Source of the DNA: an uncultured Eubacteriales bacterium | GTDB lineage: Bacteria; Bacillota; Clostridia; Oscillospirales; Acutalibacteraceae | Assembly (NCBI GenBank): GCA_964627535.1 | Contig: CAZVJW010000007.1 | Coordinates: 3,144 to 67,143, forward strand | Direction: 5' to 3' | Length of the DNA: 64,000 nucleotides | Part shown: piece by piece, positions 1-62,052 of the stretch | How the letters are laid out: each line of letters starts with the position of its first letter | Position numbering within the stretch: position 1 is the first letter of the stretch | Made by a program: the position numbers and the translations under genes | Notes under the pieces: model-generated | Database searches by the model: none | What the model was told of the DNA's origin: nothing | What the model saw: only the letters and a program-made list of their open reading frames with translations

Positions 1-747
1 TCCGATATCACCGACAGCATCCGGCAAACTGCATTCTGCCCTTGAAATCCCGGTTACTGCTGTCGGCTTAAAAGCGGGAACTTCCCCCAGATGAGGAACT
101 GCTTTTACAGAAGATTTCGGTGTAGCGCCCTTAAACGCTATATAATCCATTGATCGAGGAATAGCCGGAACCTTGAATCCACTTTTAATCGGTTTCTTGT
201 CAACCATAGGCGAGTAGTCAACGGCGGAAAGCGTAACCGGTACATTCACTGAAGCGCCGGAGATGGTTACATTAAAAGGTTTATATTTTGCTTGTTTGCT
301 GACAGCAGGCACGGTAAATTTGCCGCTTTCAACCTCAACGATTGGTAACGGCGCAAACTCAGGCTGTGGGTTGACAGCAGGCACGGTGAATTTGCCGCTT
401 TTAACCTCAACGATTGGTAACGGCGCAAACTCAGGCTGTGGGCTGACAGCAGGCACGGTGAATTTGCCGCTTTTAACCTCAACGATTGGTAATGGCGCAA
501 ACTCAGGCTGTGGGTTGACAACAGGTACGGTGAATTTTCCGCTTTCAACCTCAACGATTGGCAACGGAACAAACTCAGGCTTACAGATGAAATCGGAATT
601 AGTCAAGCCGGAGTCTCTCAAAGGAGATTGTTCCCTGTCGAATTTTGCAAACTTACCCTTAAGCTTCAGGATAACTTCGGTCATTTCATATTCGAAGAGC
701 TCTTTACGCCTTTCGATTTCTTCCCGAGTCGATAAGGTGTTTTCCAT
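1..747 (-). CDS. Repeat-containing protein, 3'-partial (continues past window start). N-terminus MENTLSTREEIERRKELFEYEM...; carries ~4.5 tandem copies of the 24-aa unit PQPEFAPLPIVEVKSGKFTVPAVS.
   Basis: Absent from the supplied ORF track because there is no stop in the window. The minus-strand phase is open from the ATG at 745-747 (RBS GGAGGA ~8 nt upstream, rev-comp of 755-760) down to nt 1, with no TTA/CTA/TCA triplets in that phase. The track ORFs 263..895(+) and 267..572(-) are off-frame readings of the same 72-bp repeat. Confidence 0.6.
   Translation of the reverse strand, partial: MENTLSTREEIERRKELFEYEMTEVILKLKGKFAKFDREQSPLRDSGLTNSDFICKPEFVPLPIVEVESGKFTVPVVNPQPEFAPLPIVEVKSGKFTVPAVSPQPEFAPLPIVEVKSGKFTVPAVNPQPEFAPLPIVEVESGKFTVPAVSKQAKYKPFNVTISGASVNVPVTLSAVDYSPMVDKKPIKSGFKVPAIPRSMDYIAFKGATPKSSVKAVPHLGEVPAFKPTAVTGISRAECSLPDAVGDIG
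299..586. repeat. 72-bp tandem repeat x4 (fourth copy diverged), in-frame within the 1..747 gene
   Basis: gacagcaggcacggtRaatttgccgcttt(c/t)aacctcaacgattggtaacggcgcaaactcaggctgtgggtt recurs with 72-nt period (299, 371, 443, 515). Confidence 0.9.
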
Positions 748-7903: not shown

Positions 7904-8580
7904 TTACCCTTTAATGAACTTCATTATCTTTTTTACATCCGCCAACGGGTTGAGCTTATAAACCTGCCCCGTAATTTTTTCGATGGCTTCCGGTTCTGTA
8001 ATACTTGCTGCTTCGTCAAACACATCGCTGCCGAAGAAGCTTTCCGTTGTGCAGAACACCGTTGACGACCAGCCGTATTCCTCCCCTATATGCGAGGCTT
8101 TTCTTTGCCTGCCGCACATGGTGATGTACATCTTCATCTGTAGCTCGACGATAGCTCTTTCAAAATGGGAACTGTCTTCTTTTGAAAAATTTCCAAATTG
8201 TTTGATTATATGAAACGGCATGCTTTCGTTGTCGCTCACCAAACCGTAAATCCTTTTGGCAAAGACGTTCATTGTACCGTCTGAATAAGCTTCTTCAAAG
8301 CTTTTGCCGCCCCGGCGAACAGCTAAAAAATACGGGTACCATTCTTTGTGATGAAGCCGCTTTTATTGATGAATAGTTTTGCGTATGCGATATCATCGCG
8401 CTCTTCCAAAACACGCATGCGCCATTCCCACGGGTCCGTTTCGGGGTCATCGGTGTGCCATGCTATTTGGCTGCCGAACAGGGAACAAAGCGAAAAAATG
8501 CCCTCGCTGTTCTCGCCGCCGGTTGAAAATCCGGCGTCAAGCAAAGCGGCTGTGAAGTCATTAAAATTTTGTATTTCCAC
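7904..8580 (-). pseudogene. Hypothetical protein split by a 1-nt frameshift in an A-run (ORFs 8323..8580 + 7904..8272 would fuse to ~215 aa)
   Basis: The frame of 7904..8272 stays open upstream to beyond 8345. Adding one A to acaaag (around 8335) gives a continuous ..FINKSGFITKEWYPYFLAVRRGGKSFEEAYSDGTMNVFAK.. protein. Confidence 0.45.
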
Positions 8581-8644
8581 TTAATTCACCTCAACTTATT
8601 CCTCTGTTCATTTATCCTAAGTTTTTAAGGTAAGGGTAAGAAAA

Positions 8645-9526
8645 TTATTTCTTTTCAACAGGTATCCAAAGCTCATAATACCGTTTCTGCCGTTCTTCTT
8701 TTGGGAACAAATGATAAACCTCGATTTCATAATCGCGTGTTTGCTTGTATCCCGAACTGTCAAGCCAAGAGTCAAATATCTGTTCACGGAGTTTTGGAAG
8801 CTCGTCACCGGCGTAACCGCCATATCCTGTTGTGAACACAGCATAGGTGCCGGCGTTGATAAAAACCTCGTCAAGTCCTTCGCCTGTGACTTCAGCCTTG
8901 TCTTTGGCTATGGAGTATTTACCGTTATCCCAAATTCCATACCAAACGCCGGGGACATTTGTGCTAACCTTATTTTGAACATCATCATGGTGGTCAGCCC
9001 ACATGATATGTTCTTGCTCAAAGCGGTCTGCGGCAACGCCAGTAAACTGTTTGCTCAGCCCTTTTAAAACTACGTTTTCAGTTTCAATAATCTTGAAATT
9101 CATCGCCTTTGCTCCTTTAATCATAACGTGAAAGGAAATCGGGGGATAGATTTTCAAGGGTGCACCTTGTGTTCGGGCCATCCCGGGTGTTAAACCGTGC
9201 TGTTTTAAGAAAGCTCTGCTGAATGCATCCGCACTGTTATAGCCATATTTTACAGAAACATCAATCACTTTAATATCCGAATTTTGAAGCTCAAACGCTG
9301 CAAGAGTCAATCGCCTGTGTCTGATGTATTCAGATAAAGTAACGCCGGCTAAGTAACTAAACAATCGCTGAAAACCATCAGGAGAATTTAATGTAATTTT
9401 CGCGACCTCATTGATATCAATTTCGTCACATAGACTGCTCTCAATATACTCAATCGCAGAGTTTAGACTTTCTAATATATCCACCTTTTTCACCTCCGGA
9501 TATAATTGTAGCAAATATTGAAGCAA
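8645..9526 (-). CDS. AraC-family transcriptional regulator with GyrI-like effector-binding domain
   Basis: N-terminal HTH_AraC (..RLFSYLAGVTLSEYIRHRRLTLAAFEL.., ..YGYNSADAFSRAFLKQHGLTP..) and C-terminal GyrI-like beta-barrel region. Confidence 0.8.
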   Translation of the reverse strand: MLQYLLQLYPEVKKVDILESLNSAIEYIESSLCDEIDINEVAKITLNSPDGFQRLFSYLAGVTLSEYIRHRRLTLAAFELQNSDIKVIDVSVKYGYNSADAFSRAFLKQHGLTPGMARTQGAPLKIYPPISFHVMIKGAKAMNFKIIETENVVLKGLSKQFTGVAADRFEQEHIMWADHHDDVQNKVSTNVPGVWYGIWDNGKYSIAKDKAEVTGEGLDEVFINAGTYAVFTTGYGGYAGDELPKLREQIFDSWLDSSGYKQTRDYEIEVYHLFPKEERQKRYYELWIPVEKK

Positions 9527-9597
9527 TATAACCGACTTTATCCGGCCGGGATTTACAGATTATCGAGCCTATATTATATTCTTCCTCATCTGTGCCA

Positions 9598-9697
9598 TAC
9601 TAATTCACGATTAAAAACCTCTAAAAAATTAAGCAAAAGCTTTAATCTATAAGGTTTTGTGCGGATTTTTTAGTTAGGTTTTTATGAGTAATTAGTA
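9598..9697 (-). repeat. MITE-like ~100-bp element with terminal inverted repeats, copy 1 (inverted orientation)
   Basis: Rev-comp aligns end-to-end with copies at 13455 and 41056: tactaattactcataaaaacctaactaaaaaatccgcacaaaacc...aaagcttttgcttRattttttagaggtttttaatcgtgaattagta. Confidence 0.85.
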
Positions 9698-9702
9698 TCA
9701 CA

Positions 9703-10149
9703 TCACAAAAGTTTTTTAATTTCTGCTTTTAAAATCATTTTCATTTCGCCAAGTTCCGCTTCTGACGGTCTTTTGCTGTCATTCCACATTTCTTCTCTCG
9801 GCAGCCACCATACGGGGCCCTTTTCCGGCATGTCGCCTTCATTCCTGGGAAATATATGCCAATGCAAATGAGTTTCGCCGTTGCCCAACAGTTCATAATT
9901 CAGTTTTTGAGGGTTAAACGCATTATAGACAGCCTCCGCGACCAAAGCCATTTCCTCAAGGTATTTCAGTTTGAATTCAGGTTCAAGAAAGTGCAGCTCG
10001 GCTGCATGCTCTTTGCATAAGAACAAGGTATATCCCTTAAAATGCTGATGATCCCCAAGCACAACATAGCCTGTTTCAAGCTCATAAACGAAGTATGGGT
10101 TTGTACCGTCTTTTGTTTGTTGTATTCTATCGCATACCGGACATTTCAT
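9703..10149 (-). CDS. HIT-family (histidine triad) nucleotide hydrolase
   Basis: HxHxHxx motif (..GETHLHWHIFPR..), ~150 aa. Confidence 0.8.
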   Translation of the reverse strand: MKCPVCDRIQQTKDGTNPYFVYELETGYVVLGDHQHFKGYTLFLCKEHAAELHFLEPEFKLKYLEEMALVAEAVYNAFNPQKLNYELLGNGETHLHWHIFPRNEGDMPEKGPVWWLPREEMWNDSKRPSEAELGEMKMILKAEIKKLL

Positions 10150-10721
10150 CCTTTACCCTCCGATTTCTTGTTTAGATTCACTTGCTCCTTAATATACTCC
10201 ATCGTAAAGGCAGGCTTCAGTGTTAGATTTTCTTTAGCCAGAATTTCGGTTGCGTTTTCGTTTCTTTGAATGACACAAAGCACAGTGTCAATAATAGCAC
10301 CCCTGTTGCGAAGCTCTTTTACACTCTCGATTATTTGACCGCCGGTGGTAACAACATCTTCAACAACGCAAACTCTCTTACCGTTAACATCAGCGCCCTC
10401 TGCCAATTTGCATGTACCGTATTACTTAGCTTTTTTTCTGACAAATGCGCAATGAATATTCGCTTCAATAGAAAGCGCGGTTGCAACCGGTATGCCGCCC
10501 ATCTCTAAACCTGCTAACACTTCTGTATCCGCCGGAATCAAGTCTCTCATAATTTTTGCTATTTGAACGAGCAATTGCGGCTGCGCTTCAAACAGATACT
10601 TGTCAAAGTATTCATTGGATATTTGTCCTGAACGCAAAGTGAATTCTCCTGTTATGTGCGCTGTCTCATAAATACTTTTTGCGATATCAGTTTTTAACAT
10701 TTTATTCTCCTTGTATTTCAA
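10146..10721 (-). pseudogene. Orotate-phosphoribosyltransferase-like type I PRTase interrupted by an in-frame TAA (10422-10424)
   Basis: ORFs 10422..10721 (..GGIPVATALSIEANIHCAFVRKKAK*) and 10146..10406 (..GKRVCVVEDVVTTGGQIIESV..) are in the same phase and together align with PyrE (FVRKEAKDHGTG..GxRVLVVEDVITTG). Only a TAA separates them. Confidence 0.75.
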
Positions 10722-11586
10722 AATTCTGACTCATTGATTTTACCATACGCAAATACTCCGTTATATTTTTATCTTCGTCTTGGTTATAAGAAAATCCTAA
10801 ATGCCCGGCGACAGTGGGTGCTATTGTTCTGAACAACTCGCAGGCAGTAAGTATTGCCGGCCAAAGGTTATCATAACTGCTGTCGGAATAGGTCTTGGCG
10901 TACATTTCATACAAGTCTGACAGCAGATATTTTTTATAATACTTACCGCTCATACCCACCGAAACAGAGAAGTCCGTCTTGATACCGATATACCAATCAA
11001 TCATCTTAACGAGCATATCGCGCACAATGACATTGTACATCCACATGGCATATGGCAATTGATCTCTCGCAATTCCTTTGGCCACATTATTCAGGCACCA
11101 CCAAAACTCGTTGCAGCAGCTTGAATATTTAATTTCGGTTGGTTTTTGAACCCAATAATTCTCATCGGACGGTGGTGGAATTTCGGGCAGGCAGTTGTCT
11201 TTATCAAGCAGGGGAACTGTCAACTTGTCGTTTTTATATTCGTCAAGCATGGCTTCTTTTGTTTGGATATGCAAATCAATGCGGTTTCCGTCTTTAAACA
11301 GCATCAGCCAGGTGTAAGAACGGTCAAATTCCATTTTCATTTCAAAGCCGATGTCGTTTATATCCGGTTCTTGCAGAATAGCCAGCTCTCCGAAAACCGA
11401 AATCCAATTTTTATCTTTCAGAAAAGACTTGGTTTCTTTTACAACATAGACAATATCGTAATCCTGATAGATATCTTTGGTAACATTGGGGTTGGCGCGC
11501 GAACCGTTCAAATAAACAGCACGAATACGCTCATCAGCTTTCGCAACGCCCAAAATCAGGTCGAACATTTTTCTTTCTGTACGCAT
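10702..11586 (-). CDS. ant(6): Aminoglycoside 6-nucleotidyltransferase ANT(6) (AadE/AadK family, streptomycin adenylyltransferase)
   Basis: MRTERKMFDLILGVAKADERIRAVYLNGSRANPNV.. closely parallels AadE MRSEKEMMDLVLSLAEQDERIRIVTLEGSRANINI..; conserved ..CCNEFWW.. block; ~294 aa. Confidence 0.85.
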   Translation of the reverse strand: MRTERKMFDLILGVAKADERIRAVYLNGSRANPNVTKDIYQDYDIVYVVKETKSFLKDKNWISVFGELAILQEPDINDIGFEMKMEFDRSYTWLMLFKDGNRIDLHIQTKEAMLDEYKNDKLTVPLLDKDNCLPEIPPPSDENYWVQKPTEIKYSSCCNEFWWCLNNVAKGIARDQLPYAMWMYNVIVRDMLVKMIDWYIGIKTDFSVSVGMSGKYYKKYLLSDLYEMYAKTYSDSSYDNLWPAILTACELFRTIAPTVAGHLGFSYNQDEDKNITEYLRMVKSMSQNFEIQGE

Positions 11587-12524
11587 TTCGAGCCTCTTTT
11601 CTGTTTGTCATCCGGAGTAACAATATTAGATTTCAAGTTCCTGTCAACAATTTTCTCGCCGTTTTGCAACTTGCCAATCAGCATCTCACCATCTTGCTTA
11701 TGCTTTTCACAATTACGTTTAACCGATGACTCGCTGTAATTGGCATAACAGTATATGCAGCTATTTTTGCATGTGTTGTAAGCTCCAATATCGATACTTT
11801 GATAGCATCCACAGCCCTTACGCTGATTATAATCGGGTGAAATATTTAGCTTCGCTCCACATATTCGTTCAATTAAGGCTTTATCAACACAGCTTGCTTT
11901 TTCTATTCCAAATATTGTTAAATCGTTGGATTCCGAGCAAGCCTTTGCAATGAGACCATACTCTTTTGCCGTTTTTCCAATAAATTCACTAAGGTTCGCA
12001 ATTTCATCAGTTGTAATTTGACGAACTGAATCTGTCTTTAATTTTGCATAGGTATCGACAAAACTGATTGTTACACTTTCGGTATACGGATAAAGTTTGT
12101 CGCAAAGCCTTGAAAACTGCTCTTTATGGTAATCCACCGATAAACTGCTATTTAACACGATAGGGTCATATCGCCACAAAACGCGCTCTTTTCCGATTGC
12201 ATTGCTGAGTTCAATAAAAGAGTTTTCAATATCGGCTTTATCACGTAAATTTCTTTCAATTGTTCTGTCATACGGTGTTAGCGTGTGTTGAAAATAGAAT
12301 TTATAGCCCATATCGTCAATTGCTTTAAGATGCGGAATAAAATTTTTTGCATCTTTCGTCCAAAACACAATACAGTCAACTACATCGGGTGAAAGCAGGA
12401 TTTTACTTATTTGTGCATGATTCATCGGATTGCGTGAAAGAAAATACCCCGCTTTCAAGCGGTTCATAAACCACTCGACGTAATAGCAGGGGATGTCTGT
12501 ACGGCGGGAAACGGAGAGTATCAT
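11556..12524 (-). CDS. DUF1848-family protein (Cys-rich, putative Fe-S)
   Basis: Family-typical N-terminus MILSVSRRTDIPCYY; C-terminal Cys cluster CGCYQSIDIGAYNTCKNSCIYCYAN. The start is set at the internal ATG (12522-24, RBS GAGGTGA) because the track start at 12575 lies inside repeat copy 2. Confidence 0.6.
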   Translation of the reverse strand: MILSVSRRTDIPCYYVEWFMNRLKAGYFLSRNPMNHAQISKILLSPDVVDCIVFWTKDAKNFIPHLKAIDDMGYKFYFQHTLTPYDRTIERNLRDKADIENSFIELSNAIGKERVLWRYDPIVLNSSLSVDYHKEQFSRLCDKLYPYTESVTISFVDTYAKLKTDSVRQITTDEIANLSEFIGKTAKEYGLIAKACSESNDLTIFGIEKASCVDKALIERICGAKLNISPDYNQRKGCGCYQSIDIGAYNTCKNSCIYCYANYSESSVKRNCEKHKQDGEMLIGKLQNGEKIVDRNLKSNIVTPDDKQKRGSKCVQKEKCST

Positions 12525-12574
12525 AAAATCACCTCGCAATCCTGTGGATTTATATTGATTATCCTGTGCAATCA

Positions 12575-12707
12575 TACTAATTATTCATAAAAACCTAACT
12601 AAAAAATCCGCACAAAACCTAATAATACTATTCTGCATTAAAATGAAGAATCGTATGAATCAAAGCTTTTGCTTGATTTTTTGGAGATTTTTAATCGTGA
12701 ATTTGTA
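12575..12707 (+). repeat. MITE-like element copy 2 (133 bp; carries a 33-bp internal insertion)
   Basis: Same TIRs (tactaattattcataaaaacctaactaaaaaat ... atttttaatcgtgaatttgta). Confidence 0.85.
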
Positions 12708-12738
12708 TCAGTTGTTCAAGTACGATATTTGTATATTG

Positions 12739-13353
12739 CTATATGGGAATCCCTAAATTTCTCAACTTTTCATACAATCCATCATAATCTCTTTTCACAT
12801 GGTTAAAGTAGATAACCCTCATGCCCATTTTCATGGGGACGACCAAGTTCTTTTCCTGATTATCAATAAATACACACTCGTCAGTATTGAGATTTAAAGC
12901 ATTGGTTGAATGTTTAAATATTTTTTCACTATCCTTACCTGAACCGACATTCGCTGAAACAGTAACAACATCGAATAGCTTATCCCATCCGTATTGCTCG
13001 ACAATACTGTCGATACGGTCCTTTTTATTGTCTGTTATCATGCCGATTCTATAATTTTGTTCTTTAAGTTTTATAGCGAGCGTCATCATTTTACTGTCAA
13101 TCGGTGTGTTGATAAAAGAGTCATAAAGCACATCTATGCTTGTGTCGGTTTTTATATTGCGGCATAGTTGCCCCCACATATCGGTATGGGCGATTTTTCC
13201 GTACAGAAGGTCATTGTTATATTTGTAATATTCATTTTTGAACAAATCCAAGTCAATGCCTGTCTTTTTTGCTATGTAATTACAAATAGAGGTTGAGCCC
13301 GTGGCGTCGGTGGTTAAAACACCGTCGAAGTCGAACAATATTGCTTTTAACAT
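12739..13353 (-). CDS. HAD-superfamily hydrolase
   Basis: Motif I LFDFDGVLT at the N-terminus; ~200 aa. Confidence 0.8.
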   Translation of the reverse strand: MLKAILFDFDGVLTTDATGSTSICNYIAKKTGIDLDLFKNEYYKYNNDLLYGKIAHTDMWGQLCRNIKTDTSIDVLYDSFINTPIDSKMMTLAIKLKEQNYRIGMITDNKKDRIDSIVEQYGWDKLFDVVTVSANVGSGKDSEKIFKHSTNALNLNTDECVFIDNQEKNLVVPMKMGMRVIYFNHVKRDYDGLYEKLRNLGIPI

Positions 13354-13454
13354 TAAGCAACCCCGCTTTCAATTATGGGAAAGTTTTTTATCACAATCAA
13401 TCTCAGCGAAAGCACAGTAAGCAATGCAAAATACAAATAGTTGAGGCACGATTA

Positions 13455-13555
13455 TACTAATTACTCATAAAAACCTAACTAAAAAATTCGCACAAAACCT
13501 AATGAATCAAAGCTTTTGCTTGATTTTTTTAGAGGTTTTTAATCGTTAATTAGTA
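13455..13555 (+). repeat. MITE-like element copy 3 (101 bp)
   Basis: tactaattactcataaaaacctaactaaaaaattcgcacaaaacctaatgaatcaaagcttttgcttgatttttttagaggtttttaatcgttaattagta. Confidence 0.9.
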
Positions 13556-13570
13556 TTAGGTCCCTTTGAT

Positions 13571-14365
13571 TCAATCCTTTAATATCGGCAAAAGCCAAAC
13601 AAAGACATTTTCAATAGCTGTGTCAGCCATGTTATCGAGCTCATGCGTACCGCCTTCAATTTCAATAAGCGTTGCCGGGAGATTTTTACATCTCATTAAA
13701 TCATAAGCCGTTTTCGCATCGGCACAACGGAAAGTATTGTCGGCAGTGCCTTGCAGAAACAGCACTGGGCATTTGATTTTATCCATTGTATGTATGGGCG
13801 CTTTACTTATGGTGTCGGTGTAAAAGTTTATTCCGAAATCCACACCGAAAATGTTTGCGGTTCCGCAGGACAATAAAACTTCTAAATTGTCGGAAAGGAG
13901 CTTTGCGGGGCCGCCTTTGTTCATCCCGATATGTGCGCTGATACAGGTTCCGACTGAAATGATAAAATTGATTCTATCGTCCTCTGCCGCTAAACGAAGT
14001 GCCGCAGTTGAGCCGGAGCTGAACGCATAAGAGCCGATTTTACTTTCTTGTGCAAAAGGCTGTTCCTTAACCCAAGTAATAACATCGGCAAGGTTGTTCT
14101 TCCAGCGGGTGTAGGTCATCTGACTATATTTGCCTCCGGTTTCACCGCAACCAAAAAAGTCAAAGGTAACGAGAGCAATGTTTTCTTTCATCGCTCTTTC
14201 ACACAGTTTTTCGGTAGGATTCCAAAGTTGTCGTCTGCCGCCCCAACCGTGACAGTAAATTATCACAGGTATATTTTCAGCGCCCTCAATTGGCAGATAA
14301 ACCGTTCCGAAATTTTGGTCACCTGTGTTCAATTTGAAATCGTATGTGTACATAGCAAACCTCAC
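13571..14365 (-). CDS. Alpha/beta-fold hydrolase (dienelactone hydrolase/S9-like)
   Basis: ..IIYCHGWGGRRQ.. and nucleophile elbow ..GSYAFSSGS..; 264 aa. Confidence 0.65.
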   Translation of the reverse strand: MRFAMYTYDFKLNTGDQNFGTVYLPIEGAENIPVIIYCHGWGGRRQLWNPTEKLCERAMKENIALVTFDFFGCGETGGKYSQMTYTRWKNNLADVITWVKEQPFAQESKIGSYAFSSGSTAALRLAAEDDRINFIISVGTCISAHIGMNKGGPAKLLSDNLEVLLSCGTANIFGVDFGINFYTDTISKAPIHTMDKIKCPVLFLQGTADNTFRCADAKTAYDLMRCKNLPATLIEIEGGTHELDNMADTAIENVFVWLLPILKD

Positions 14366-14376
14366 ATAAACTGATC

Positions 14377-15255
14377 TTACTTTCTGCCGCTATAGATCAG
14401 CACGGTGCTTGTTGCAATATCCCATAGCTTTTCTCCGTGCATATATTGATCTATGCGAATATCATATCGCTTGTTAATCAGTGCAATTAATTCTTCGTAT
14501 TCTTTTGTTGTTAAAGCAGAGGGGGCTAACCGCTGTGCTTTTTCTATACTGCTCAATTCATGTAAACGGTTAACATTGATTTGTTCTATTGCCGTTTCTT
14601 CGGAAATAGTTGAACTGTCGGGTGCATATGAAACAACAGATATAATATTGACGCTGACATCATTAAAACCATTTTTAAACAAATAGGCAAGATGCTCACT
14701 TTCCGTCAGTTCGTGCCGACTAACAACACTCAAATCATTTTTATCAGCTTCGTTCCATAACTTTTCAAACAAGGCTTTTTCTGCTGAATTGGTAGGCTTC
14801 CATATTTCTGAATTAACGCGTCTTGAAGCAACAAGTATATGTATTTTCCCATTTGACTTTAGAACTCTATATTGTTCCTTGATAAAAGCGTTAGGCTCGC
14901 AGAAGTTCATGACCGTGTGAGAAAAGCACAAGTCAAAGGTATCGTCGGCGAAGGGGAGGGCGACAGCATCGCCGTTAACAAAAGCGCAGTCGATATCAAG
15001 CTCTTTTGATTTTGTCTTTGCATACTGAATATGTCCTATGTCAAAATCGAGTCCCGTCACATTGGTTGTGGGAAGATAAGACTTTATCCTGTGGCAAAAT
15101 ATTCCGCCTCCGCAGCCGACTTCGAGAATATTCATACCGTTTTCAATTTGTAAGGCTTTAAGCCATAAATCCTTATTGCCGTCATGGAAGCGCATAGCCC
15201 TTGAACGGTATAATTCTTCGGAAGTCTGCACATATTGTGACCATTTGTTATCCAT
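14377..15255 (-). CDS. Class I SAM-dependent methyltransferase
   Basis: SAM-binding motif I ..ILEVGCGGGIF.. Confidence 0.75.
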   Translation of the reverse strand: MDNKWSQYVQTSEELYRSRAMRFHDGNKDLWLKALQIENGMNILEVGCGGGIFCHRIKSYLPTTNVTGLDFDIGHIQYAKTKSKELDIDCAFVNGDAVALPFADDTFDLCFSHTVMNFCEPNAFIKEQYRVLKSNGKIHILVASRRVNSEIWKPTNSAEKALFEKLWNEADKNDLSVVSRHELTESEHLAYLFKNGFNDVSVNIISVVSYAPDSSTISEETAIEQINVNRLHELSSIEKAQRLAPSALTTKEYEELIALINKRYDIRIDQYMHGEKLWDIATSTVLIYSGRK

Positions 15256-15400
15256 CAGTTTTTACCTCAGCAATTATAATTATTTCCGACTGAACATGCG
15301 AGGAAAAAGCCTGTTCGCATAAAGGTATACGGTCAGGCTTTTTGCCGGCGAAAACATCGTCGATTCTTTGTTTGTGAGCACTTATTTTTTTATCGGTCAT
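15248..15400 (-). CDS. Small ORF (50 aa, MTDKKISAHKQRIDDVFAGKKPDRIPLCEQAF...), stop overlapping the methyltransferase start (ATGGATAA); possible URO-D/MtaA-family N-terminal remnant or coupled leader ORF
   Basis: Found by hand, not in the track (<60 aa). GGAGA 6 nt upstream of the ATG. Its ..GKKPDRIPLC.. resembles the conserved N-terminal ..DRVPVC.. of URO-D-family proteins. Confidence 0.25.
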   Translation of the reverse strand: MTDKKISAHKQRIDDVFAGKKPDRIPLCEQAFSSHVQSEIIIIAEVKTDG

Positions 15401-15445
15401 AAACATTCTCCGAAAGGTCAAATGACTGTCGTTTTTGAAATATGG

Positions 15446-16000
15446 TTACAGCTTTATCCCCATCGCGACATCGCCAATGCCTTTTGCAAGTTCCGAAAAG
15501 CCGTACTTCTTATAAAAATTGATGCCCAGTTCGTTGGTTCTGCCGACGGTCAGCATAAGCCCGCCGATTCCTTTTGCCTTCAGGTGCTCACTCAAAGCGT
15601 TTACTAACTTGCTGCCGAGGCCTTTGCGCTGGTATTCGTCCAGAATATCGATATGAAGGTGGGCGGGATACTGCGAGGCGTACTTGGCGTGCAGGCGGTA
15701 GGAACCGAGGGAGGCCCTCCATTTGATATAGCCGAGCTCTTTAACCTTCGGCAAATATTTTTCGTTGAAGCGCGCCTGGTACTTTGCGTAGTTTTCCGCG
15801 CAATAGATGTAGCCGATTGCCTCATCCTTTTCGTTTGCTGCCACAAAGCAGTTTTCCGGTTCGCACTCAATATAGTAATCGCAGTAGGTGTCCAATATAA
15901 ATTCCTGATCCCTTTTTATTTTCGGGTTGCCGGCGTTAATCAAACAGATTTTGCGGATATTGTCACGGTCTTTGGGTTGATAAGGTCTGATGGTTTCCAT
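15446..16000 (-). CDS. GNAT-family N-acetyltransferase
   Basis: Acetyl-CoA motif A ..QRKGLGSKLVNAL.. and C-terminal ..FYKKYGF.. Confidence 0.8.
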   Translation of the reverse strand: METIRPYQPKDRDNIRKICLINAGNPKIKRDQEFILDTYCDYYIECEPENCFVAANEKDEAIGYIYCAENYAKYQARFNEKYLPKVKELGYIKWRASLGSYRLHAKYASQYPAHLHIDILDEYQRKGLGSKLVNALSEHLKAKGIGGLMLTVGRTNELGINFYKKYGFSELAKGIGDVAMGIKL

Positions 16001-16026
16001 AGGTATTCTCCTGTTCTAAATATTTT

Positions 16027-16101
16027 GTAGGGGACGGGTTCTCCGTCCCGTTTATTTTTGATTGGTTTTATTCGATTCGGGACGGAAAACCCGTCCCCTA
16101 C
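16027..16101. repeat. Inverted pair of 24-nt hairpin-forming units (gtaggggacgggttctccgtcccg ... cgggacggaaaacccgtcccctac)
   Basis: The arms at 16027-16050 and 16078-16101 are reverse complements (23/24). Each arm is itself a gggacgg/ccgtccc hairpin. Confidence 0.8.
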
Positions 16102-16106
16102 TGATC

Positions 16107-16646
16107 TTATTCAAATAAATAGCAGCTCGTGAATGTTATCGTCTGCGGGCCGTTGTTGTAGGCGACGCCGGAAAGGGTGCATACCTTGCTGACGAATAAA
16201 CCGTAGGCCTCCATGGAAGGAACAGCGAGCTCCGGGAAACGGCAGGGCGCGTCGGGGTAGGTGCATTCGGGGCATACGGAGCAAGCGCCCGCGCCCATCG
16301 GCATCATTTTTGGGAAACGAAGTCGCAAATCGGCAGTGAAGTTTTTAAAGTTTTGCCTGTGCTTTGAGGAGGTTGCTTCAATTGTTTCCCAGTCGAAATC
16401 GTCCTCCATCTGCCCGATAGTCTGCACAAGCAAACCTTTGGAATATTCAGCTGCTCTCAGCGATGCCTCCTCGATGGTTCCGCAGCCGGGGGGGCATGTC
16501 CAGCTTTTGCCGTAACTGTGGCAGCGGTCTGCCGCGCACATGTCCCTGACCTCGGGCATAAACTCAATGGCTTTGCGGTTGAGTTCGCCTGCCTGTGAAA
16601 ATCCCGCGGTTAATGCTTCGTCAATTAATGTTTTCATATCAATCAT
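16107..16646 (-). CDS. DUF2284 predicted metal-binding protein
   Basis: Cys motifs ..CPPGCG.., ..CSVCPEC.. Start set at the internal ATG 16644-46 (RBS AGGAGGT); the track start 16721 is a TTG. Confidence 0.6.
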   Translation of the reverse strand: MIDMKTLIDEALTAGFSQAGELNRKAIEFMPEVRDMCAADRCHSYGKSWTCPPGCGTIEEASLRAAEYSKGLLVQTIGQMEDDFDWETIEATSSKHRQNFKNFTADLRLRFPKMMPMGAGACSVCPECTYPDAPCRFPELAVPSMEAYGLFVSKVCTLSGVAYNNGPQTITFTSCYLFE

Positions 16647-16729
16647 AAAATAAATACCTCCTGTTGCGTTGCTGACTGAAATAGTATATATTAATTTTAT
16701 TAGTGATACAAGTCGAATCAATCAACTCA

Positions 16730-16828
16730 TACTGATTCACGATTAAAACCTCTAAAAAATCAAGTAAAAGCTTTTATTTATGCGGTTTTGCGTGGATTTT
16801 TTCTTAGGGTTTTTATGAGTGATTAATA
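16730..16828 (-). repeat. MITE-like element copy 4 (inverted orientation, more diverged)
   Basis: tactgattcacgattaaaacctctaaaaaat ... ttcttagggtttttatgagtgattaata; rev-comp aligns with the family consensus. Confidence 0.8.
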
Positions 16829-16899
16829 TTGTCTGCAAAACATATAAAAGATATTATCTTTCGGACAAATAATTTGGCTGAAACAAGGGGTGTGCCGCA

Positions 16900-18027
16900 A
16901 TGGTAGAAAGAGAAAAAATGAGCTTGGGTGCTCAAAAAATGCGAGACTTCTACGAGATGAAAAAGGGCGCTCATATCTATCAGGAAGAGTTCGGATTTTT
17001 CACCTTTGACCGCTGGACAGCGGCGGGTTTTTTGAGTGATGATGTTGATTTAAACAAGCTGTTCGGTTATGACGAGCCGGGTAAGTATTCCTTAGGTAAG
17101 TTAGGCTGGTGCGAAAGTGAACTAAACCCCATCTTTAAAGAAGAAGTTTTGGAAGACAGGGGAGAGCATGAACTTGTGCGGGATTTCGCGGGCAGGCATG
17201 TTCTTTATTTCAAGGGGCGAAGGAACGGCTTTATGCCGGAGTATGTTGACCATCCGGTGAAGGATATGCTGACCTGGGAGCGGGATGTCAAATGGCGGCT
17301 TGACCCGTCAACACCAAAACGCTTTGCAGACATCGAAAAGAGAATGGAAAATGCAAAGAACCGGGAAAAGCAGGGGATGGTGATCTGCCAGAACCTGATC
17401 GGCGGCTATATGTATCTTCGCTCGCTCATGGGACCGGAAGGCGTTTTATATATGGTGTACGACGCGCCGGAGCTGATACATGACTGCATGAAAACATGGT
17501 TCGAACTGGCGGATACCGTCATCGCGCAGCATCAGAAGTATGTCACGCTGGATGAAATCTTTTTAGCAGAGGACATCTGTTACAAGGGCGGACCGTTGAT
17601 TTCACCTGCCATGATGCGTGAGTTTTTATTTCCATACTATCAGCAGCTGACATTAAACGCCAAAAACAGGCAGATTGATAAAACGCGGCTGCTTCACATC
17701 CAGATTGATACGGACGGCGACTGCAGGCCGGTGATCCCCGTTTACAAAGAAATCGGCATGGACTATATGTCTCCGTTTGAAGTTGCCTCCGGCTGCGATG
17801 TGGTGGAGCAGAGAAAACAATATCCGGAACTTTTGATGCGCGGCGGGATTGACAAACGGATATTAGCCGAAAGCAAGGATGCCATTGACCGGGAGCTCGA
17901 AAGAATCATGCCTTTTATGCGCGAACAAGGCGGTTATATTCCAACCTGCGACCATGGGGTGCCGGAAGAGGTGCCGTTTGAAAACTACCTGCATTACAGA
18001 AAAAGAATGATTGAATACAGCAGCTGA
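16900..18027 (+). CDS. Uroporphyrinogen-decarboxylase (URO-D/MtaA-like) family protein
   Basis: 375 aa with a URO-D-like C-terminal region (..MPFMREQGGYIPTCDHGVPEEVPFENY..). Confidence 0.6.
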   Translation: MVEREKMSLGAQKMRDFYEMKKGAHIYQEEFGFFTFDRWTAAGFLSDDVDLNKLFGYDEPGKYSLGKLGWCESELNPIFKEEVLEDRGEHELVRDFAGRHVLYFKGRRNGFMPEYVDHPVKDMLTWERDVKWRLDPSTPKRFADIEKRMENAKNREKQGMVICQNLIGGYMYLRSLMGPEGVLYMVYDAPELIHDCMKTWFELADTVIAQHQKYVTLDEIFLAEDICYKGGPLISPAMMREFLFPYYQQLTLNAKNRQIDKTRLLHIQIDTDGDCRPVIPVYKEIGMDYMSPFEVASGCDVVEQRKQYPELLMRGGIDKRILAESKDAIDRELERIMPFMREQGGYIPTCDHGVPEEVPFENYLHYRKRMIEYSS

Positions 18028-26705: not shown

Positions 26706-26784
26706 ATTAGATATTAAATTATTTATATTTCTATTATGGAGTAAAATATTTTGTGCCATAAAGAATAAGTAATTGGATATAAAA

Positions 26785-26815
26785 AAGAAACAATCATCAT
26801 GTAAAGTAGTATTGT
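26785..26815 (+). promoter_or_regulatory. Conserved motif aaaGAAACAAtcatcATGTAAAGTAGTattg upstream of the SGNH gene (shared with 28071-28107)
   Basis: About 22 of 28 identities, including a perfect 12-mer ATGTAAAGTAGT, with the site upstream of the OmpR regulator gene. Confidence 0.45.
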
Positions 26816-26848: not shown

Positions 26849-28015
26849 ATTAAAAAGTTATTTAAAATTATTGCATTGGTTCTGACCGTCTCAGTACTTT
26901 TCTCATCATTTTCTCCACAGACATTTGCTGCAGATAAAAATACAGATAAGATAACCATCTGTATTTATGGCAACAGCTGGGTTTTTACTGGTGATTATGT
27001 TCTCCACCTTGAGGGAGTTTTTAAAAGCAAAGGTATTAGCTGTGAAATTATTCCATTTTACATTGGCGGGTTTGACGGCCTGATACCCAACCAACTAAAA
27101 TTGCTTCAAGAAGACCCCGAACGTCTTGCGCTCCTGAAAAGTGCTGATATTGTTATTGTGGAAGCTATGTATGACCAATACACAAAAGAATTTAACACCT
27201 TCGCTTCTTTGTGTGATGAGGATGCAAAGATCTATGCTATAAATCCGCTGTCCTCTAACGACTCATGCCTTTCATGGGAGTACATGGAATATTATTGGAA
27301 TGATTGGACTGAAAATGATTTAATTTGCAGGTTGTTTAAACAGGTATTTCGTTTACTTTGTTTTATTGATGAACTGGATGCTAAAACAGAAAACAGCTTT
27401 TTTAAGACCATACTCGACGGACTTCGAAATTTAATTGACACAACAATATTCGGAAGATATCTGTACGAAAATAAATACAATTACTATTATTCTTTCTATT
27501 ATTATGAAAAATATTATGGCGTTTCTGATTGGAATTCATTGACAGACTGCCTTGAAAAACTATATGACGAAACAGGTGAATCACATTCAGAGGAGCTTTC
27601 AATGGCTGCAGTTAACAGCATCACCGGATATATCCCGTCCGGGTACATCAATGATGACCTGCTTATAAATGAGGGCTTCGACTCCTATGACTTGCGTGGA
27701 CCAGACAGCGGTCGCCATCCAAACACGCTATCGGGGTATATTGCCGCAATCAGCACTTACAGCATTATCTTCGGCGAATCCGCTTCAAACATCAGTTATA
27801 GACTTAATGATGAAGATCTATGTGCTTTACCGAAAAAAGGTATAAAAAGCAAACTGTCCTCGGATGAAATAATGAATACCGTCCAAAATGTTACGGACGA
27901 AACAATTAAATGGTATGTACAGAAAATGCAAGACTTAAAGAACTCTCTTATATGGGATGAAACCAAGGGGTATTATGTAAAAAGCGAAAACAGCGTTCTG
28001 CCATATATATATTGA
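26849..28015 (+). CDS. Secreted SGNH/GDSL-like hydrolase; probable non-canonical ATT start
   Basis: In-frame extension of track ORF 26876..28015 gives a textbook signal peptide (I/M)KKLFKIIALVLTVSVLFSSFSPQTFA|ADK. RBS AAGGGGG lies 8 nt before the ATT at 26849. Block-I-like ..ICIYGNSW.. and block-V-like ..DSGRHPN.. Confidence 0.5.
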   Translation: MKKLFKIIALVLTVSVLFSSFSPQTFAADKNTDKITICIYGNSWVFTGDYVLHLEGVFKSKGISCEIIPFYIGGFDGLIPNQLKLLQEDPERLALLKSADIVIVEAMYDQYTKEFNTFASLCDEDAKIYAINPLSSNDSCLSWEYMEYYWNDWTENDLICRLFKQVFRLLCFIDELDAKTENSFFKTILDGLRNLIDTTIFGRYLYENKYNYYYSFYYYEKYYGVSDWNSLTDCLEKLYDETGESHSEELSMAAVNSITGYIPSGYINDDLLINEGFDSYDLRGPDSGRHPNTLSGYIAAISTYSIIFGESASNISYRLNDEDLCALPKKGIKSKLSSDEIMNTVQNVTDETIKWYVQKMQDLKNSLIWDETKGYYVKSENSVLPYIY

Positions 28016-28070
28016 TCTATGATATGACGGTTATTATGATTGTGTCAAAAAGAAAAAGGTTTTGGACACA

Positions 28071-28107
28071 AAAAGGAAACAACTTCGATGTAAAGTAGTG
28101 CTATTCG
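28071..28107 (+). promoter_or_regulatory. Second copy of the GAAACAA...ATGTAAAGTAGT motif, ~115 nt upstream of the response-regulator gene
   Basis: aaaagGAAACAActtcgATGTAAAGTAGTgctattcg. Confidence 0.45.
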
Positions 28108-28219
28108 AATTATTCATTTCTATTTTACATGAGGTTTTTTGCATCTTCGATTCTTATTTGACCACAGTTGATACATCAGTGTGGATTCATGTTTAATAAA
28201 TACATCGGGGGAAGCTGTT

Positions 28220-41020: not shown

Positions 41021-41055
41021 GCATGCATGCTTACTTACTCGAATCTGTTAAATCA

Positions 41056-41155
41056 TACTAATTACTCATAAAAACCTAACTAAAAATTCCGCATAAAACC
41101 CCATAAATCAAAGCTTTTGCTTGATTTTTTAGAGGCTTTTTATCGTGAATTAGTA
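41056..41155 (+). repeat. MITE-like element copy 5 (100 bp), abutting the stop codon of the regulator gene
   Basis: tactaattactcataaaaacctaactaaaaattccgcataaaaccccataaatcaaagcttttgcttgattttttagaggctttttatcgtgaattagta. Confidence 0.9.
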
Positions 41156-42277
41156 TCAGTTATGTTGTTTTTCTTTCTTTGCATAGGGCTTATATTTTTC
41201 AAAAATCGTCTTAAATCCGTCCGTTTTCCCAATATCACCGTTACCAAAATGCAAATCTAAAATTTCAAGCTCTCGTGCTATTTCATTTTGACTTTCTCCG
41301 CAACATATTTTCATCATATCATCTGTAATGGTATCAACTAAAAACGAAGTGTGCTTTGATATCGTTGGTAACTCATCGTATGCTTTACCATAAGCTAACC
41401 CTTTATCAAGATAGTCAAAAGCCGTATTATATTCCTTCAAATCTAAATACCTATATGCAATCCAAATATTGAGTTCACACAGATTGTAGAAATCAAAGCC
41501 GTAATCGCCATCATCATATATTAAGTTCAATAAATCTACAGCTTTCTGAAGAATACGAATTCTAGTTTTTGCATCGGCTTTTGAATGCAATGCACAGTTC
41601 CTGATTTTTACCATCAGACATTCGGTAAGATTTTTGATGTTCTTTTGAACACATGGAAACCACTCTTCTGTGCCCCGAACATAAATGTTTTCCATTTCTT
41701 CGTCTGCCGTAAAATAATAATGTTCAGGGAAACGCTTGGCGGTTTCTATTGCTTTTTCTATGTTGCCATCAAGGCAATATAGGCTGCTCAAAATCGAAAG
41801 TGCGCTGTATCTAGGCTTGTCGAGCCGACACTCATCAAACACTCTATCGCACAGTTTGTATAGTTCCTCCTTATGAACCTCGTTTCCGTAAGGTGCTTCT
41901 TTACAATTTGGGTCATAAGTAAGCTGCCACATATATTCATCGACTATTCTGAAATCGTTGGGGAATTCTTTATATGCGGTACACATTAAATTGTATTTTT
42001 CCATGCTTTTTCCGAGTGCGGAAAGTTTGCGGAATTCACTTAAATAGTTTTCTATCTTTTCTTCATTTTTCGCCGCGTCAAGCCCGAGCAACTTGTCGGT
42101 TGTTACACAAAAATAGCTTGCAAGCGGAAGAATCATTGTGATATCGGGATAGGTTTCATTTCTTTCCCATTTTGACACGGCTTGCGTGCTGACATTAAGA
42201 TGCTCCGCCAGCTTTTCCTGCGTGATATTTTTATCGCGGCGCAGACGCTTGATGTTTTCTCCAATACAGATATTCAT
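41156..42277 (-). CDS. HTH-XRE + TPR-like regulator, RRNPP (Rgg/PlcR/NprR-like) architecture
   Basis: N-terminal ..IKRLRRDKNITQEKLAEHLNVSTQAVSKWERNETYPDITMILPLASYF..; ~300-aa helical-repeat C-terminal domain. Confidence 0.6.
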   Translation of the reverse strand: MNICIGENIKRLRRDKNITQEKLAEHLNVSTQAVSKWERNETYPDITMILPLASYFCVTTDKLLGLDAAKNEEKIENYLSEFRKLSALGKSMEKYNLMCTAYKEFPNDFRIVDEYMWQLTYDPNCKEAPYGNEVHKEELYKLCDRVFDECRLDKPRYSALSILSSLYCLDGNIEKAIETAKRFPEHYYFTADEEMENIYVRGTEEWFPCVQKNIKNLTECLMVKIRNCALHSKADAKTRIRILQKAVDLLNLIYDDGDYGFDFYNLCELNIWIAYRYLDLKEYNTAFDYLDKGLAYGKAYDELPTISKHTSFLVDTITDDMMKICCGESQNEIARELEILDLHFGNGDIGKTDGFKTIFEKYKPYAKKEKQHN

Positions 42278-59253: not shown

Positions 59254-59282
59254 AAGCCACGGCTAAAAAAGCCGTGGCTTGA
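59254..59282 (+). terminator. Hairpin agccacggc-taaaaaa-gccgtggct after the activase gene (weak T-tail)
   Basis: 9-bp stem. The downstream T-run is poor. Confidence 0.35.
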
Positions 59283-59383
59283 TACTAATCCATCTTAAAA
59301 ACATAGCTAAAAATCTGCATAAAACCCCATAAATCAAAGCTTTTGCTTGGTTTTTTTAGAGGTTTTTTAATCGTGAATTAGTA
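59283..59383 (+). repeat. MITE-like element copy 6 (left TIR degenerate)
   Basis: tactaatccatcttaaaaacatagctaaaaatctgcataaaaccccataaatcaaagcttttgcttggtttttttagaggttttttaatcgtgaattagta. Confidence 0.8.
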
Positions 59384-59389
59384 TGACTG

Positions 59390-61588: not shown

Positions 61589-61930
61589 AATAATTCTCCC
61601 CCCAAAATTGACATGTTAAGCGGATGTGATTTTTTTTGCTTTTATAGCCGCCAAAACCGGAACAGAGAAACCAAAACCGGAAACTATGCCTGACTATATA
61701 TTGCGGAAAAAACACGCCCTATTAAATTTTATACTGTCTATTGTATTTCTAAACAAAACAGTTTTTACAGAAACTTATATTAACAATATATTACACTTTA
61801 ATTATATAATAAAATTCCATATTGTCAACAGAATGGTATGTTTTGCATGTAGAATTTCAGCCTGCAGATTTGTGTATTATTACTAAATACAAAAAATAAG
61901 CGGGCAGCAATACGATTTAAAATCATATAA

Positions 61931-62020
61931 TACTAATTACTCATAAAAACCTAACTAAAAAATCAGCATAAAACCCTATAAATCAAAGATTTAACTTAGC
62001 TTTTTAATCGTGAATTAGTA
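61931..62020 (+). repeat. MITE-like element copy 7 (90 bp, central deletion)
   Basis: tactaattactcataaaaacctaactaaaaaatcagcataaaaccctataaatcaaagatttaacttagctttttaatcgtgaattagta. Confidence 0.85.
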
Positions 62021-62052
62021 TAAACTGCCCGCTGAGTGTATGAGTTATTTTC

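What the first reader, a model, noticed from the sequence alone, without database searches (positions are those of the whole stretch)
9598..16828. Repeat-punctuated, single-strand array of accessory genes including ant(6) aminoglycoside resistance
Between repeat copies 1 and 4, all ten genes are on the minus strand. They form a functionally miscellaneous set: HIT hydrolase, interrupted PRTase, ANT(6), DUF1848, HAD, alpha/beta hydrolase, SAM methyltransferase, GNAT, DUF2284. Repeat copies separate the blocks (HIT..DUF1848 | HAD | hydrolase..DUF2284). This resembles a cassette array or a mosaic built by repeated MITE-mediated insertions. It places a streptomycin-type nucleotidyltransferase in a potentially mobile context in a gut/rumen anaerobe.
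Basis: partly seen in the sequence, partly recalled or inferred. Interest (0 to 1): 0.6.

Follow-up and report, generated by a model that had tools for sequence, protein, structure and literature searches.

The report
Small mobile repeats scattered among ordinary genes
The repeats are copies of a roughly 100-base non-coding jumping element (a MITE) that landed one by one between genes already in place, so the gene row, including a streptomycin-modifying-type enzyme gene, is an ordinary chromosomal cluster rather than a mobile resistance cassette array.

Summary

The repeat is a roughly 100-nt AT-rich element that starts TAC and ends GTA. It has terminal inverted repeats of about 33 nt and is flanked by a 3-bp TNA target-site duplication. 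The duplication is perfect in 7 of 10 copies, and its middle base is identical on both sides in 8 of 10. Three further copies sit elsewhere in the window beside unrelated genes. Three more lie in other organisms' contigs, one of them between obg and a KDPG aldolase gene. It is therefore a dispersed MITE family, not a cassette boundary.

The two copies flanking the HAD gene each carry their own perfect duplication (TCA/TCA and TTA/TTA). This argues for separate simple insertions and against a composite transposon or a recombined circle. Relatives carry the ANT(6)-PRTase pair, or long co-directional arrays of small enzyme genes, without any repeats. I found no integrase or transposase in the window's annotated ORFs.

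The ANT(6) homologue scores below NCBI's resistance-family cut-off and belongs to a widespread chromosomal clostridial family. This is an ordinary array with MITE insertions added later, and the interest is low.

The parts
9595..9700 (-). MITE copy c1. Element proper 9598-9697, flanked by CCA (9595-9597) and TCA (9698-9700). It lies 2 nt downstream of the HIT stop codon.
   Evidence: nhmmer E=1.5e-30; sequence; hairpin fold z about -5 to -7
12572..12710 (+). MITE copy c2. Element 12575-12707, flanked by a perfect TCA/TCA duplication. It carries a 33-nt internal insertion (about 12620-12652). It lies between the HAD stop and the DUF1848 start.
13452..13558 (+). MITE copy c3. Element 13455-13555, flanked by a perfect TTA/TTA duplication. 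It lies between the hydrolase stop and the HAD start.
16727..16831 (-). MITE copy c4, the most diverged copy (79-89% identity to the others). Element 16730-16828, flanks TCA and TTG (degenerate). It lies in the divergent spacer between DUF2284 and the URO-D-like gene.
41053..41158 (+). MITE copy c5, with a perfect TCA/TCA duplication. The right-hand duplicate (41156-41158) is itself the TGA stop codon of the minus-strand HTH gene 41156-42277.
59280..59386 (+). MITE copy c6, with a perfect TGA/TGA duplication. It lies between the terminator hairpin of the glycyl-radical activase gene and the stop codon of the dockerin/LRR gene.
61928..62023 (+). MITE copy c7, with a perfect TAA/TAA duplication and a 12-nt internal deletion.
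9703..12575 (-). Tightly packed four-gene block DUF1848 - ANT(6) homologue - PRTase (pseudogene, TAA at 10422-10424) - HIT. Neighbouring start and stop codons overlap.
12739..13353 (-). HAD-family hydrolase gene, lying between c2 and c3.
13571..16721 (-). Alpha/beta hydrolase, SAM methyltransferase, GNAT and DUF2284 genes. GC3 jumps from 0.39-0.45 to 0.57-0.63 between the methyltransferase and GNAT genes.

Best explanation
The repeats are copies of a non-autonomous transposable element (MITE) about 100 nt long. Its consensus is TACTAATTACTCATAAAAACCTAACTAAAAAAT ... ATTTTTTAGAGGTTTTTAATCGTGAATTAGTA. A transposase supplied in trans would recognise the terminal inverted repeats of about 33 nt, cut the target with a 3-nt stagger at TNA, and leave a TNA duplication on each side.

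Copies c1-c4 entered four existing intergenic spacers of a chromosomal, co-directional cluster of small-molecule-modifying enzyme genes, each as a separate simple insertion. They did not bring the genes with them and they do not mark recombination sites. Removing each element and one duplicate leaves ordinary spacers of about 73-111 nt.

Shown here: inverted termini, flanking duplications, dispersal into unrelated contexts within this genome and in other organisms, and absence from related arrays. Inferred: the transposase family (IS5/PIF-Harbinger-like, from the 3-bp TNA duplication), mobilisation in trans, and any effect on transcription.
For: 1. The window holds seven copies, all intergenic. 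Three more copies lie in an uncultured Eubacteriales MAG and a JGI metagenome contig, with flanks unrelated to the window. One of these lies between obg and a KDPG aldolase gene.
2. Flanking TNA triplets are identical in 7 of 10 copies. The middle base is identical, not complementary, in 8 of 10 (binomial P about 4e-4). That marks it as a duplication rather than an extension of the inverted repeat.
3. c2 (TCA/TCA) and c3 (TTA/TTA) flank the HAD gene with their own matched duplications, while the outer pair (TCA vs TTA) does not match.
4. The long hairpin is significant (z -4 to -7) but shows only 1 compensatory pair out of 33 and several broken pairs. This pattern fits conserved transposase-binding ends, not a selected RNA structure.
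5. There is no Rfam match to the element.
6. Short-read contigs of the same organism (L001, L005, L015) end inside c1, c2, c3 and c6, as expected for a multi-copy repeat.
7. Relatives lack the element. In L008-L011 the ANT(6) homologue (78% aa) is adjacent to an intact PRTase (87% aa). L013 carries a 26-gene co-directional array of GNAT, HAD, methyltransferase, CAT and similar genes.
8. Composition does not change at the repeats.
9. Three-base target duplications are typical of the IS5/PIF-Harbinger superfamily, and TNA occurs within it (PMC4482050; PMC2516522).
Against: I found no autonomous partner. None of the annotated window ORFs is a transposase, and the termini match nothing in the plasmid, phage or viral collections.

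No empty orthologous site could be recovered, so insertion is inferred from the duplications alone. The T and A of TNA are invariant, so only one position per copy carries information.

Copies differ by 5-21% from one another, so there is no sign of recent activity. c4 has a degenerate duplication.

For the HIT-to-DUF1848 block, c1 and c2 all carry TCA-type flanks, so the duplications cannot distinguish independent insertion from a composite.
Confidence: 0.77

Rival explanations
1. MITE-flanked composite transposons or translocatable units: pairs of repeat copies mobilised the blocks between them (HIT..DUF1848, HAD, hydrolase..DUF2284) and built the array as a mosaic.
For: Blocks are bracketed by copies. 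c2 and c3 are the most similar pair (94%) and lie in direct orientation around one gene. For the c1-c2 block the outer flanks CCA and TCA differ at only one base. The array is slightly GC-poorer than the rest of the window (0.42 vs 0.45, P about 0.05).
Against: c2 and c3 each have their own perfect duplication, and their outer flanks differ (TCA vs TTA). This contradicts both composite transposition and recombination of a circle into a resident copy. The GC3 break lies inside a block, not at a repeat. The ANT(6)-PRTase pair occurs in relatives without repeats. No transposase was found in the window.
Confidence: 0.07
2. An integron-like cassette array in which the repeats act as attC-type recombination sites.
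For: The genes are co-directional small genes of miscellaneous function. The repeats are imperfect palindromes about 100 nt long and lie close to gene 3' ends.
Against: Orientation is mixed. There are only 4 sites for 10 genes. The ends are TAC...GTA with a TNA duplication rather than RYYYAAC/GTTRRRY cores. No tyrosine recombinase appears among the window's annotated ORFs. The same element lies between convergent core genes (c5, c6) and next to obg in another organism.
Confidence: 0.01
3. The repeat is mainly a host-selected cis-element (a REP-like insulator, bidirectional terminator or mRNA stabiliser) that partitions transcription of the array, whatever its origin.
For: It forms a strong long hairpin. 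It contains an inner hairpin followed by a T-run (TCAAAGC-TTTT-GCTTGA-TTTTTT). Six of 7 window copies lie within 30 nt of a stop codon, and in c5 and L003 the duplication is the stop codon itself.
Against: There is no covariation. The orientation relative to the upstream gene is not consistent, and in c2, c3 and c7 the T-run is on the wrong strand for the gene that ends there. c4 sits in a divergent promoter region. Closeness to stop codons is also expected for a TNA-targeting element under purifying selection, because TAA and TGA are themselves TNA.
Confidence: 0.12
4. The repeat encodes a family of small RNAs.
For: Its sequence is conserved and it is highly structured.
Against: There is no Rfam match, no compensatory changes and no consistent promoter or terminator. 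The flanking duplications point to transposition.
Confidence: 0.02

Closest known systems
Bacterial MITEs (for example Correia/NEMIS elements of Neisseria, RUP of Streptococcus pneumoniae, bcr1 of the Bacillus cereus group); comparison from general knowledge
   Same: About 100 nt, non-coding and AT-rich. Terminal inverted repeats fold as a long hairpin. A short target-site duplication is present. There are many intergenic copies, often next to gene ends, and they break short-read assemblies.
   Different: The sequence matches nothing in the collections searched. The duplication is 3-bp TNA (Correia and RUP are reported with TA-type targets). The host is an uncultured anaerobic clostridial lineage. 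No partner IS has been identified.
IS5 / PIF-Harbinger (PHIS) superfamily and its Tourist-like MITEs
   Same: The 3-bp target duplication has a T-N-A pattern. PHIS elements typically make 3-bp duplications, TNA is described for one group (PMC4482050), and the IS1031 group of IS5 recognises three nucleotides (PMC2516522).
   Different: No transposase is linked to this element. The termini start TAC rather than the G-rich ends I recall for IS5-family members (from memory, not tested). Other IS families also make 3-bp duplications.
MITE-flanked resistance units (integron mobilisation units; MITE pairs around class 1 integrons in Acinetobacter); from general knowledge
   Same: Two copies of a MITE bracket one or more genes, one of them from an aminoglycoside-modifying family.
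   Different: In those units the pair shares one duplication on the outer sides. Here each copy has its own, and there is no sign that the bracketed genes moved.
Integron cassette arrays and attC sites
   Same: A co-directional row of small genes of mixed function, interspersed with imperfect palindromes.
   Different: No intI, no conserved attC cores, mixed orientation, and sites absent from most gene junctions. The same repeat occurs between core genes.
Chromosomal ANT(6) enzymes (AadK of Bacillus subtilis, PDB 2PBE; ANT(6)-Ib, PDB 8VXB)
   Same: Full-length Pfam PF04439 match, alignment over the whole length, and a conserved N-terminal nucleotidyltransferase region.
   Different: About 50% identity or less by eye from the alignment. 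The score is below the NCBIfam ANT_6 equivalog cut-off (261.7 vs 420). The substrate is untested. The closest relatives (78-83%) carry an extra Cys-rich C-terminal domain of about 125 aa that is missing here.

Membership tests
MITE | Short (<300 bp) with no coding capacity | tested here: met
   90-133 nt, with no ORF
MITE | Terminal inverted repeats | tested here: met
   Arms of about 33 nt pair end to end. The predicted long hairpin scores z -3.9 to -6.8 against shuffles.
MITE | Target-site duplication flanking each copy | tested here: met
   3-bp TNA, perfect in 7 of 10 copies. The middle base is the same on both sides in 8 of 10 and complementary in 0 of 10.
MITE | Multiple dispersed copies in unrelated genomic contexts | tested here: met
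   7 copies in the window and 3 in other organisms' contigs, sharing only the element
MITE | Filled versus empty orthologous sites | tested here: inconclusive
   No relative close enough was found. Exact-protein look-ups found only one sample with this organism. The 91%-identical contig L018 ends before the c6 site.
MITE | A cognate autonomous IS with matching termini | tested here: inconclusive
   No transposase among the window's annotated ORFs. No match in plasmids, phages or viral contigs. The rest of the genome was not available.
IS5/PIF-Harbinger-derived element | 3-bp duplication at a T/A-rich palindromic target | tested here: met
   TNA; literature
IS5/PIF-Harbinger-derived element | Termini matching those of a DDE transposase-encoding member | not testable with these tools
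   No IS reference library (such as ISfinder) is available here.
Integron cassette array | An intI tyrosine recombinase with attI next to the array | tested here: not met
   No recombinase among the annotated window ORFs
Integron cassette array | An attC site with RYYYAAC/GTTRRRY cores after every cassette, all in one orientation | tested here: not met
   4 sites for 10 genes, mixed orientation, and ends TAC...GTA
Composite (MITE-flanked) transposon | One duplication shared by the outer ends of the pair, with the inner ends unrelated | tested here: not met
   For the HAD unit, c2 is TCA/TCA and c3 is TTA/TTA, while the outer pair TCA/TTA does not match. The test is inconclusive for c1-c2 because all flanks are TCA-like.
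ANT(6) aminoglycoside resistance enzyme | Reaches the curated NCBIfam ANT_6 equivalog score | tested here: not met
   261.7 bits against a cut-off of 420. All allele-specific models are also below cut-off.
ANT(6) aminoglycoside resistance enzyme | Belongs to the Adenyl_transf (PF04439) fold family | tested here: met
   394 bits, full length. E = 3e-64 to PDB 8VXB.
ANT(6) aminoglycoside resistance enzyme | Confers streptomycin resistance | not testable with these tools
   Requires MIC or enzyme assays.
Intrinsic terminator | A GC-rich hairpin plus U-run on the strand of the gene that ends upstream | tested here: not met
   The inner hairpin is AT-rich. Its T-run is on the wrong strand at c2, c3 and c7. 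The terminator scan did not call any copy.

The most novel reading that the evidence does not exclude
ANT(6) orthologues of 75-83% identity sit in differently composed, co-directional rows of small enzyme genes in each relative examined (window, L008, L013, L012, L014, L016). These clostridial arrays might be assembled gene by gene by an unrecognised, integron-independent cassette-shuffling process that leaves no attC-like site. The MITEs would then be bystanders attracted to the same permissive, AT-rich spacers.
Probability: 0.05. Interest if true: 0.7.

Novelty: new member of a known kind. Interest (0 to 1): 0.22.

Why it matters
The main value is practical.

First, it removes a false alarm. 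The ANT(6)-type gene is a chromosomal family member with no demonstrated mobility or resistance role.

Second, it defines a previously unannotated MITE family (TAC...GTA ends, TNA duplication) in uncultured anaerobic Clostridia. This family fragments short-read assemblies and can be masked or used as a lineage marker.

Third, it gives tidy examples of insertion exactly at TAA/TGA stop codons, where the duplication regenerates the stop.

None of this changes current understanding of MITEs or of resistance gene mobility.

Tried and rejected
- Rfam, at gathering thresholds on the whole window and at E<=1 on 9500-16900: no hit to the repeat. Only sub-threshold hairpin matches appeared at 16022-16105.
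- tRNA scan: none, so there are no tRNA-linked island boundaries.
- Exact-pattern scans for the element: 2 loci in 185,579 species genomes, 1 in JGI metagenomes and 0 in viral contigs. blastn against plasmids and phages gave only chance-level hits.
- Exact-protein look-ups to find strain variants with empty sites: only one sample (SRR8925725) carries this organism, and the HAD and DUF2284 proteins are not on record.
- L018 (91% nt identity over PFL and its activase) ends 29 nt after the activase stop, before the c6 site.
- A search for repeats or attC-like hairpins in the related arrays L008 and L013 found nothing beyond chance pairs. Their spacers are mostly 15-50 nt with ribosome-binding sites.
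- Covariation test for an RNA structure: negative.
- Promoter and terminator scan: no call inside any copy.
- Bacillus plasmid hits to the ANT(6), PRTase and HIT genes are not clustered together, so they give no evidence for a conserved operon.
- Literature searches for the sample and assembly identifiers found nothing.


Full report
**1. The observation**

ORF listing and Pfam/NCBIfam scans confirm ten minus-strand ORFs between 9703 and 16721:
- HIT (9703-10149)
- a PRTase in two pieces (10146-10406 and 10422-10721)
- an ANT(6)/Adenyl_transf homologue (10702-11586)
- DUF1848 (11556-12575)
- HAD (12739-13353)
- alpha/beta hydrolase (13571-14365)
- SAM methyltransferase (14377-15255)
- GNAT (15446-16000)
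- DUF2284 (16107-16721)

The two PRTase pieces are in the same frame and are separated by a single TAA at 10422-10424. An intact 177-aa orthologue, 87% identical, has GAA (Glu) at that codon. The gene is therefore a one-base nonsense pseudogene.

The repeat finder, an alignment and an nhmmer profile find seven copies of one element in the window. Three lie elsewhere: c5 41053-41158, c6 59280-59386 and c7 61928-62023, all on the plus strand.

The minus-strand run is not bounded by c1. It continues to about 1149.

**2. What the repeat is**

Each copy is about 100 nt and AT-rich. The ends are inverted: TACTAATTACTCATAAAAACCTAACTAAAAAAT on one side, and the complement of TACTAATTCACGATTAAAAACCTCTAAAAAAT on the other. 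Each copy folds as one long imperfect hairpin (z -3.9 to -6.8 against shuffles).

I read the flanks of the seven window copies and of three copies found in other contigs. The sequence just outside TAC...GTA is a direct repeat of T-N-A:
- Perfect: c2 TCA/TCA, c3 TTA/TTA, c5 TCA/TCA, c6 TGA/TGA, c7 TAA/TAA, L003 TAA/TAA, L004 TAA/TAA.
- One mismatch: c1 and L002.
- Two mismatches: c4, the most diverged copy.

The variable middle base is the same on both sides in 8 of 10 copies and is never the complement. Identity is what a target-site duplication predicts. A longer inverted repeat would predict the complement. The binomial probability is about 4e-4.

There is essentially no covariation in the hairpin: 1 compensatory pair of 33, several broken pairs, and a positive covariation term. 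There is no Rfam match. The orientation relative to neighbouring genes is not consistent.

Small size, inverted termini, target duplication and dispersal together define a MITE.

Three-base duplications are typical of the IS5/PIF-Harbinger superfamily. TNA is described within that superfamily (PMC4482050), and the IS1031 group of IS5 recognises three nucleotides (PMC2516522). That family assignment is an inference only, because no transposase was found.

**3. Dispersal**

An exact 30-specified-base pattern taken from the element hits only three other places in the genome and metagenome collections. Two are contigs of an uncultured Eubacteriales MAG (L002, L003) and one is a JGI metagenome contig (L004). 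These share nothing with the window except the element.
- In L003 the copy lies between obg and a KDPG aldolase gene, and its duplication is the aldolase's TAA stop codon.
- In the window, the right-hand duplicate of c5 is the TGA stop of the HTH gene 41156-42277.
- c1 and c6 lie 2-3 nt from stop codons.

The L004 copy is 88-95% identical to the window copies, as close as they are to one another (79-94%). This suggests a star-like family without recent bursts.

Short-read contigs of the same organism (L001, L005, L015, from SRR8925725) end inside c1, c2, c3 and c6. This is the usual signature of a multi-copy repeat.

**4. Did the repeats build the array?**

The duplications give a direct test. 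If the HAD gene had moved as a MITE-flanked composite, or if a circle had recombined into a resident copy, the outer flanks of c2 and c3 should match each other and the inner flanks should be unrelated. Instead each copy has its own perfect pair (TCA/TCA and TTA/TTA), and the outer flanks differ. So c2 and c3 are separate simple insertions on either side of a gene that was already there. They share subfamily-specific substitutions (94% identity), which could reflect a local hop.

For the c1-c2 block the test carries no information, because all the flanks are TCA-like.

Removing each element plus one duplicate leaves spacers of about 73, 75, 111 and 73 nt.

Base composition does not follow the repeats. 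GC3 is 0.37-0.46 from HIT through the methyltransferase and 0.57-0.63 for GNAT and DUF2284. The break therefore lies inside the third block.

None of the annotated window ORFs is an integrase or transposase. The window otherwise carries ordinary chromosomal genes:
- a pst-phoU operon
- pyruvate kinase
- a glycyl-radical enzyme with its activase
- aldehyde:ferredoxin oxidoreductase
- several two-component systems
- a dockerin/LRR protein that points to an anaerobic, cellulosome-type clostridial host

**5. Relatives**

The ANT(6) homologue has thousands of relatives. The best 120 are all at least 65% identical, and most come from Clostridia. Contexts of the closest ones were fetched:
- **L008-L011** (78% aa) keep the ANT(6)-PRTase adjacency with overlapping stop and start codons. 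The other neighbours are different, though of similar kinds (NUDIX, HAD, methyltransferases, GNAT, AP endonuclease, formyltransferase).
- **L013** (76%) carries a 26-gene co-directional row of GNATs, HADs, a CAT, glyoxalase and others.
- **L012, L014, L016 and L017** each have different neighbours again.

None of these loci contains the MITE or any other punctuating repeat.

Co-directional rows of small modifying enzymes around ANT(6) are therefore a recurring clostridial feature that does not depend on repeats. The repeats in the window were added later.

**6. The resistance claim**

The protein is a full-length PF04439 member. It aligns end to end with ANT(6)-Ib (PDB 8VXB, E = 3e-64) and AadK (PDB 2PBE). 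However, it scores 261.7 bits against the NCBIfam ANT_6 equivalog cut-off of 420, and it is below every allele-specific model.

It is best described as a chromosomal ANT(6)-family homologue of untested substrate. It sits in a tightly packed four-gene block with DUF1848, a dead PRTase and HIT. Nothing here places it on a mobile element.

**7. Verdict**

The repeats are MITEs, but the array is neither a cassette array nor a MITE-built mosaic, and a mobile context for a resistance gene is not supported. The MITE family appears to be undescribed, so it is a new member of a known kind. Interest is low.

Noticed in passing
window 10422-10424: The PRTase (OPRT-like) gene is inactivated by a single GAA-to-TAA nonsense change. 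An intact orthologue, 87% identical, sits next to the ANT(6) gene in L008-L011. The same stop is present in an independent short-read contig (L001).
   Followed up: yes
window 10702-11586 vs L008 10001-11248: The closest ANT(6) relatives (78-83% identity, 412-423 aa) carry a Cys-rich C-terminal extension of about 125 aa (CxxCxxC-type motifs). It is absent from the window protein. About 377 nt are missing between the ANT(6) domain and the PRTase gene.
   Followed up: partly
window 41156-41158; L003 2753-2755: In two copies one half of the MITE's TNA duplication is itself the stop codon (TGA or TAA) of the neighbouring gene. The insertion therefore regenerated the stop. c1 and c6 lie 2-3 nt from stop codons.
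   Followed up: yes
window 16027-16100: Two GGGACGG-N5-CCGTCCC hairpins (16031-16049 and 16079-16097) lie between the DUF2284 and GNAT genes and together form a long hairpin of about 74 nt. A 26-nt identical stretch occurs in the unrelated MAG contig L002 (902-927). This may be a second small palindromic repeat family or a shared terminator.
   Followed up: partly
window 12620-12652 (inside c2); L018 7785-7815: c2 carries a 33-nt insertion containing TAC TATTCTGCATTAAAATGAAGAATC GTA. Its first 20 nt recur, with 2 differences, directly after the TAA stop of the activase gene at the end of contig L018. This could be a nested mini-element of a related family.
   Followed up: partly
window 15255-15446: GC3 jumps from 0.39 (methyltransferase) to 0.63 (GNAT) and 0.57 (DUF2284) across a 190-nt spacer that contains no repeat. 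This is a possible older acquisition boundary.
   Followed up: partly
window 8645-9526: The gene just downstream of c1 encodes an AraC-type regulator with a GyrI-like/Cass2 small-molecule-binding domain (Rob-like). It might sense xenobiotics and regulate the neighbouring enzyme genes.
   Followed up: no
window 7904-8644: The AlkZ-related ORF covers only profile positions 104-221. The upstream 370 nt are full of stops in that frame, so this is probably another pseudogene in the same region.
   Followed up: partly
window 300-581: A 72-nt tandem repeat (3.9 copies, 93% matches) lies inside ORF 263-895, which has no Pfam match. It would encode a 24-aa protein repeat.
   Followed up: no
L013 1-16006; L008 1-16000: Relatives carry very long co-directional rows (up to 26 genes) of small GNAT, HAD, methyltransferase, NUDIX, CAT and glyoxalase genes around their ANT(6) orthologues. 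Gene content differs in each genome and no repeats are detectable. In the homologue list some ANT(6) domains are fused to HAD, GNAT or nitroreductase domains (P0072, P0091, P0060).
   Followed up: partly
window 26751-26810 and 28040-28099: A 60-nt direct repeat (77% identity) lies upstream of two plus-strand genes (26876-28015, no Pfam match, and the response regulator 28181-28891). It may be a shared regulatory region.
   Followed up: no
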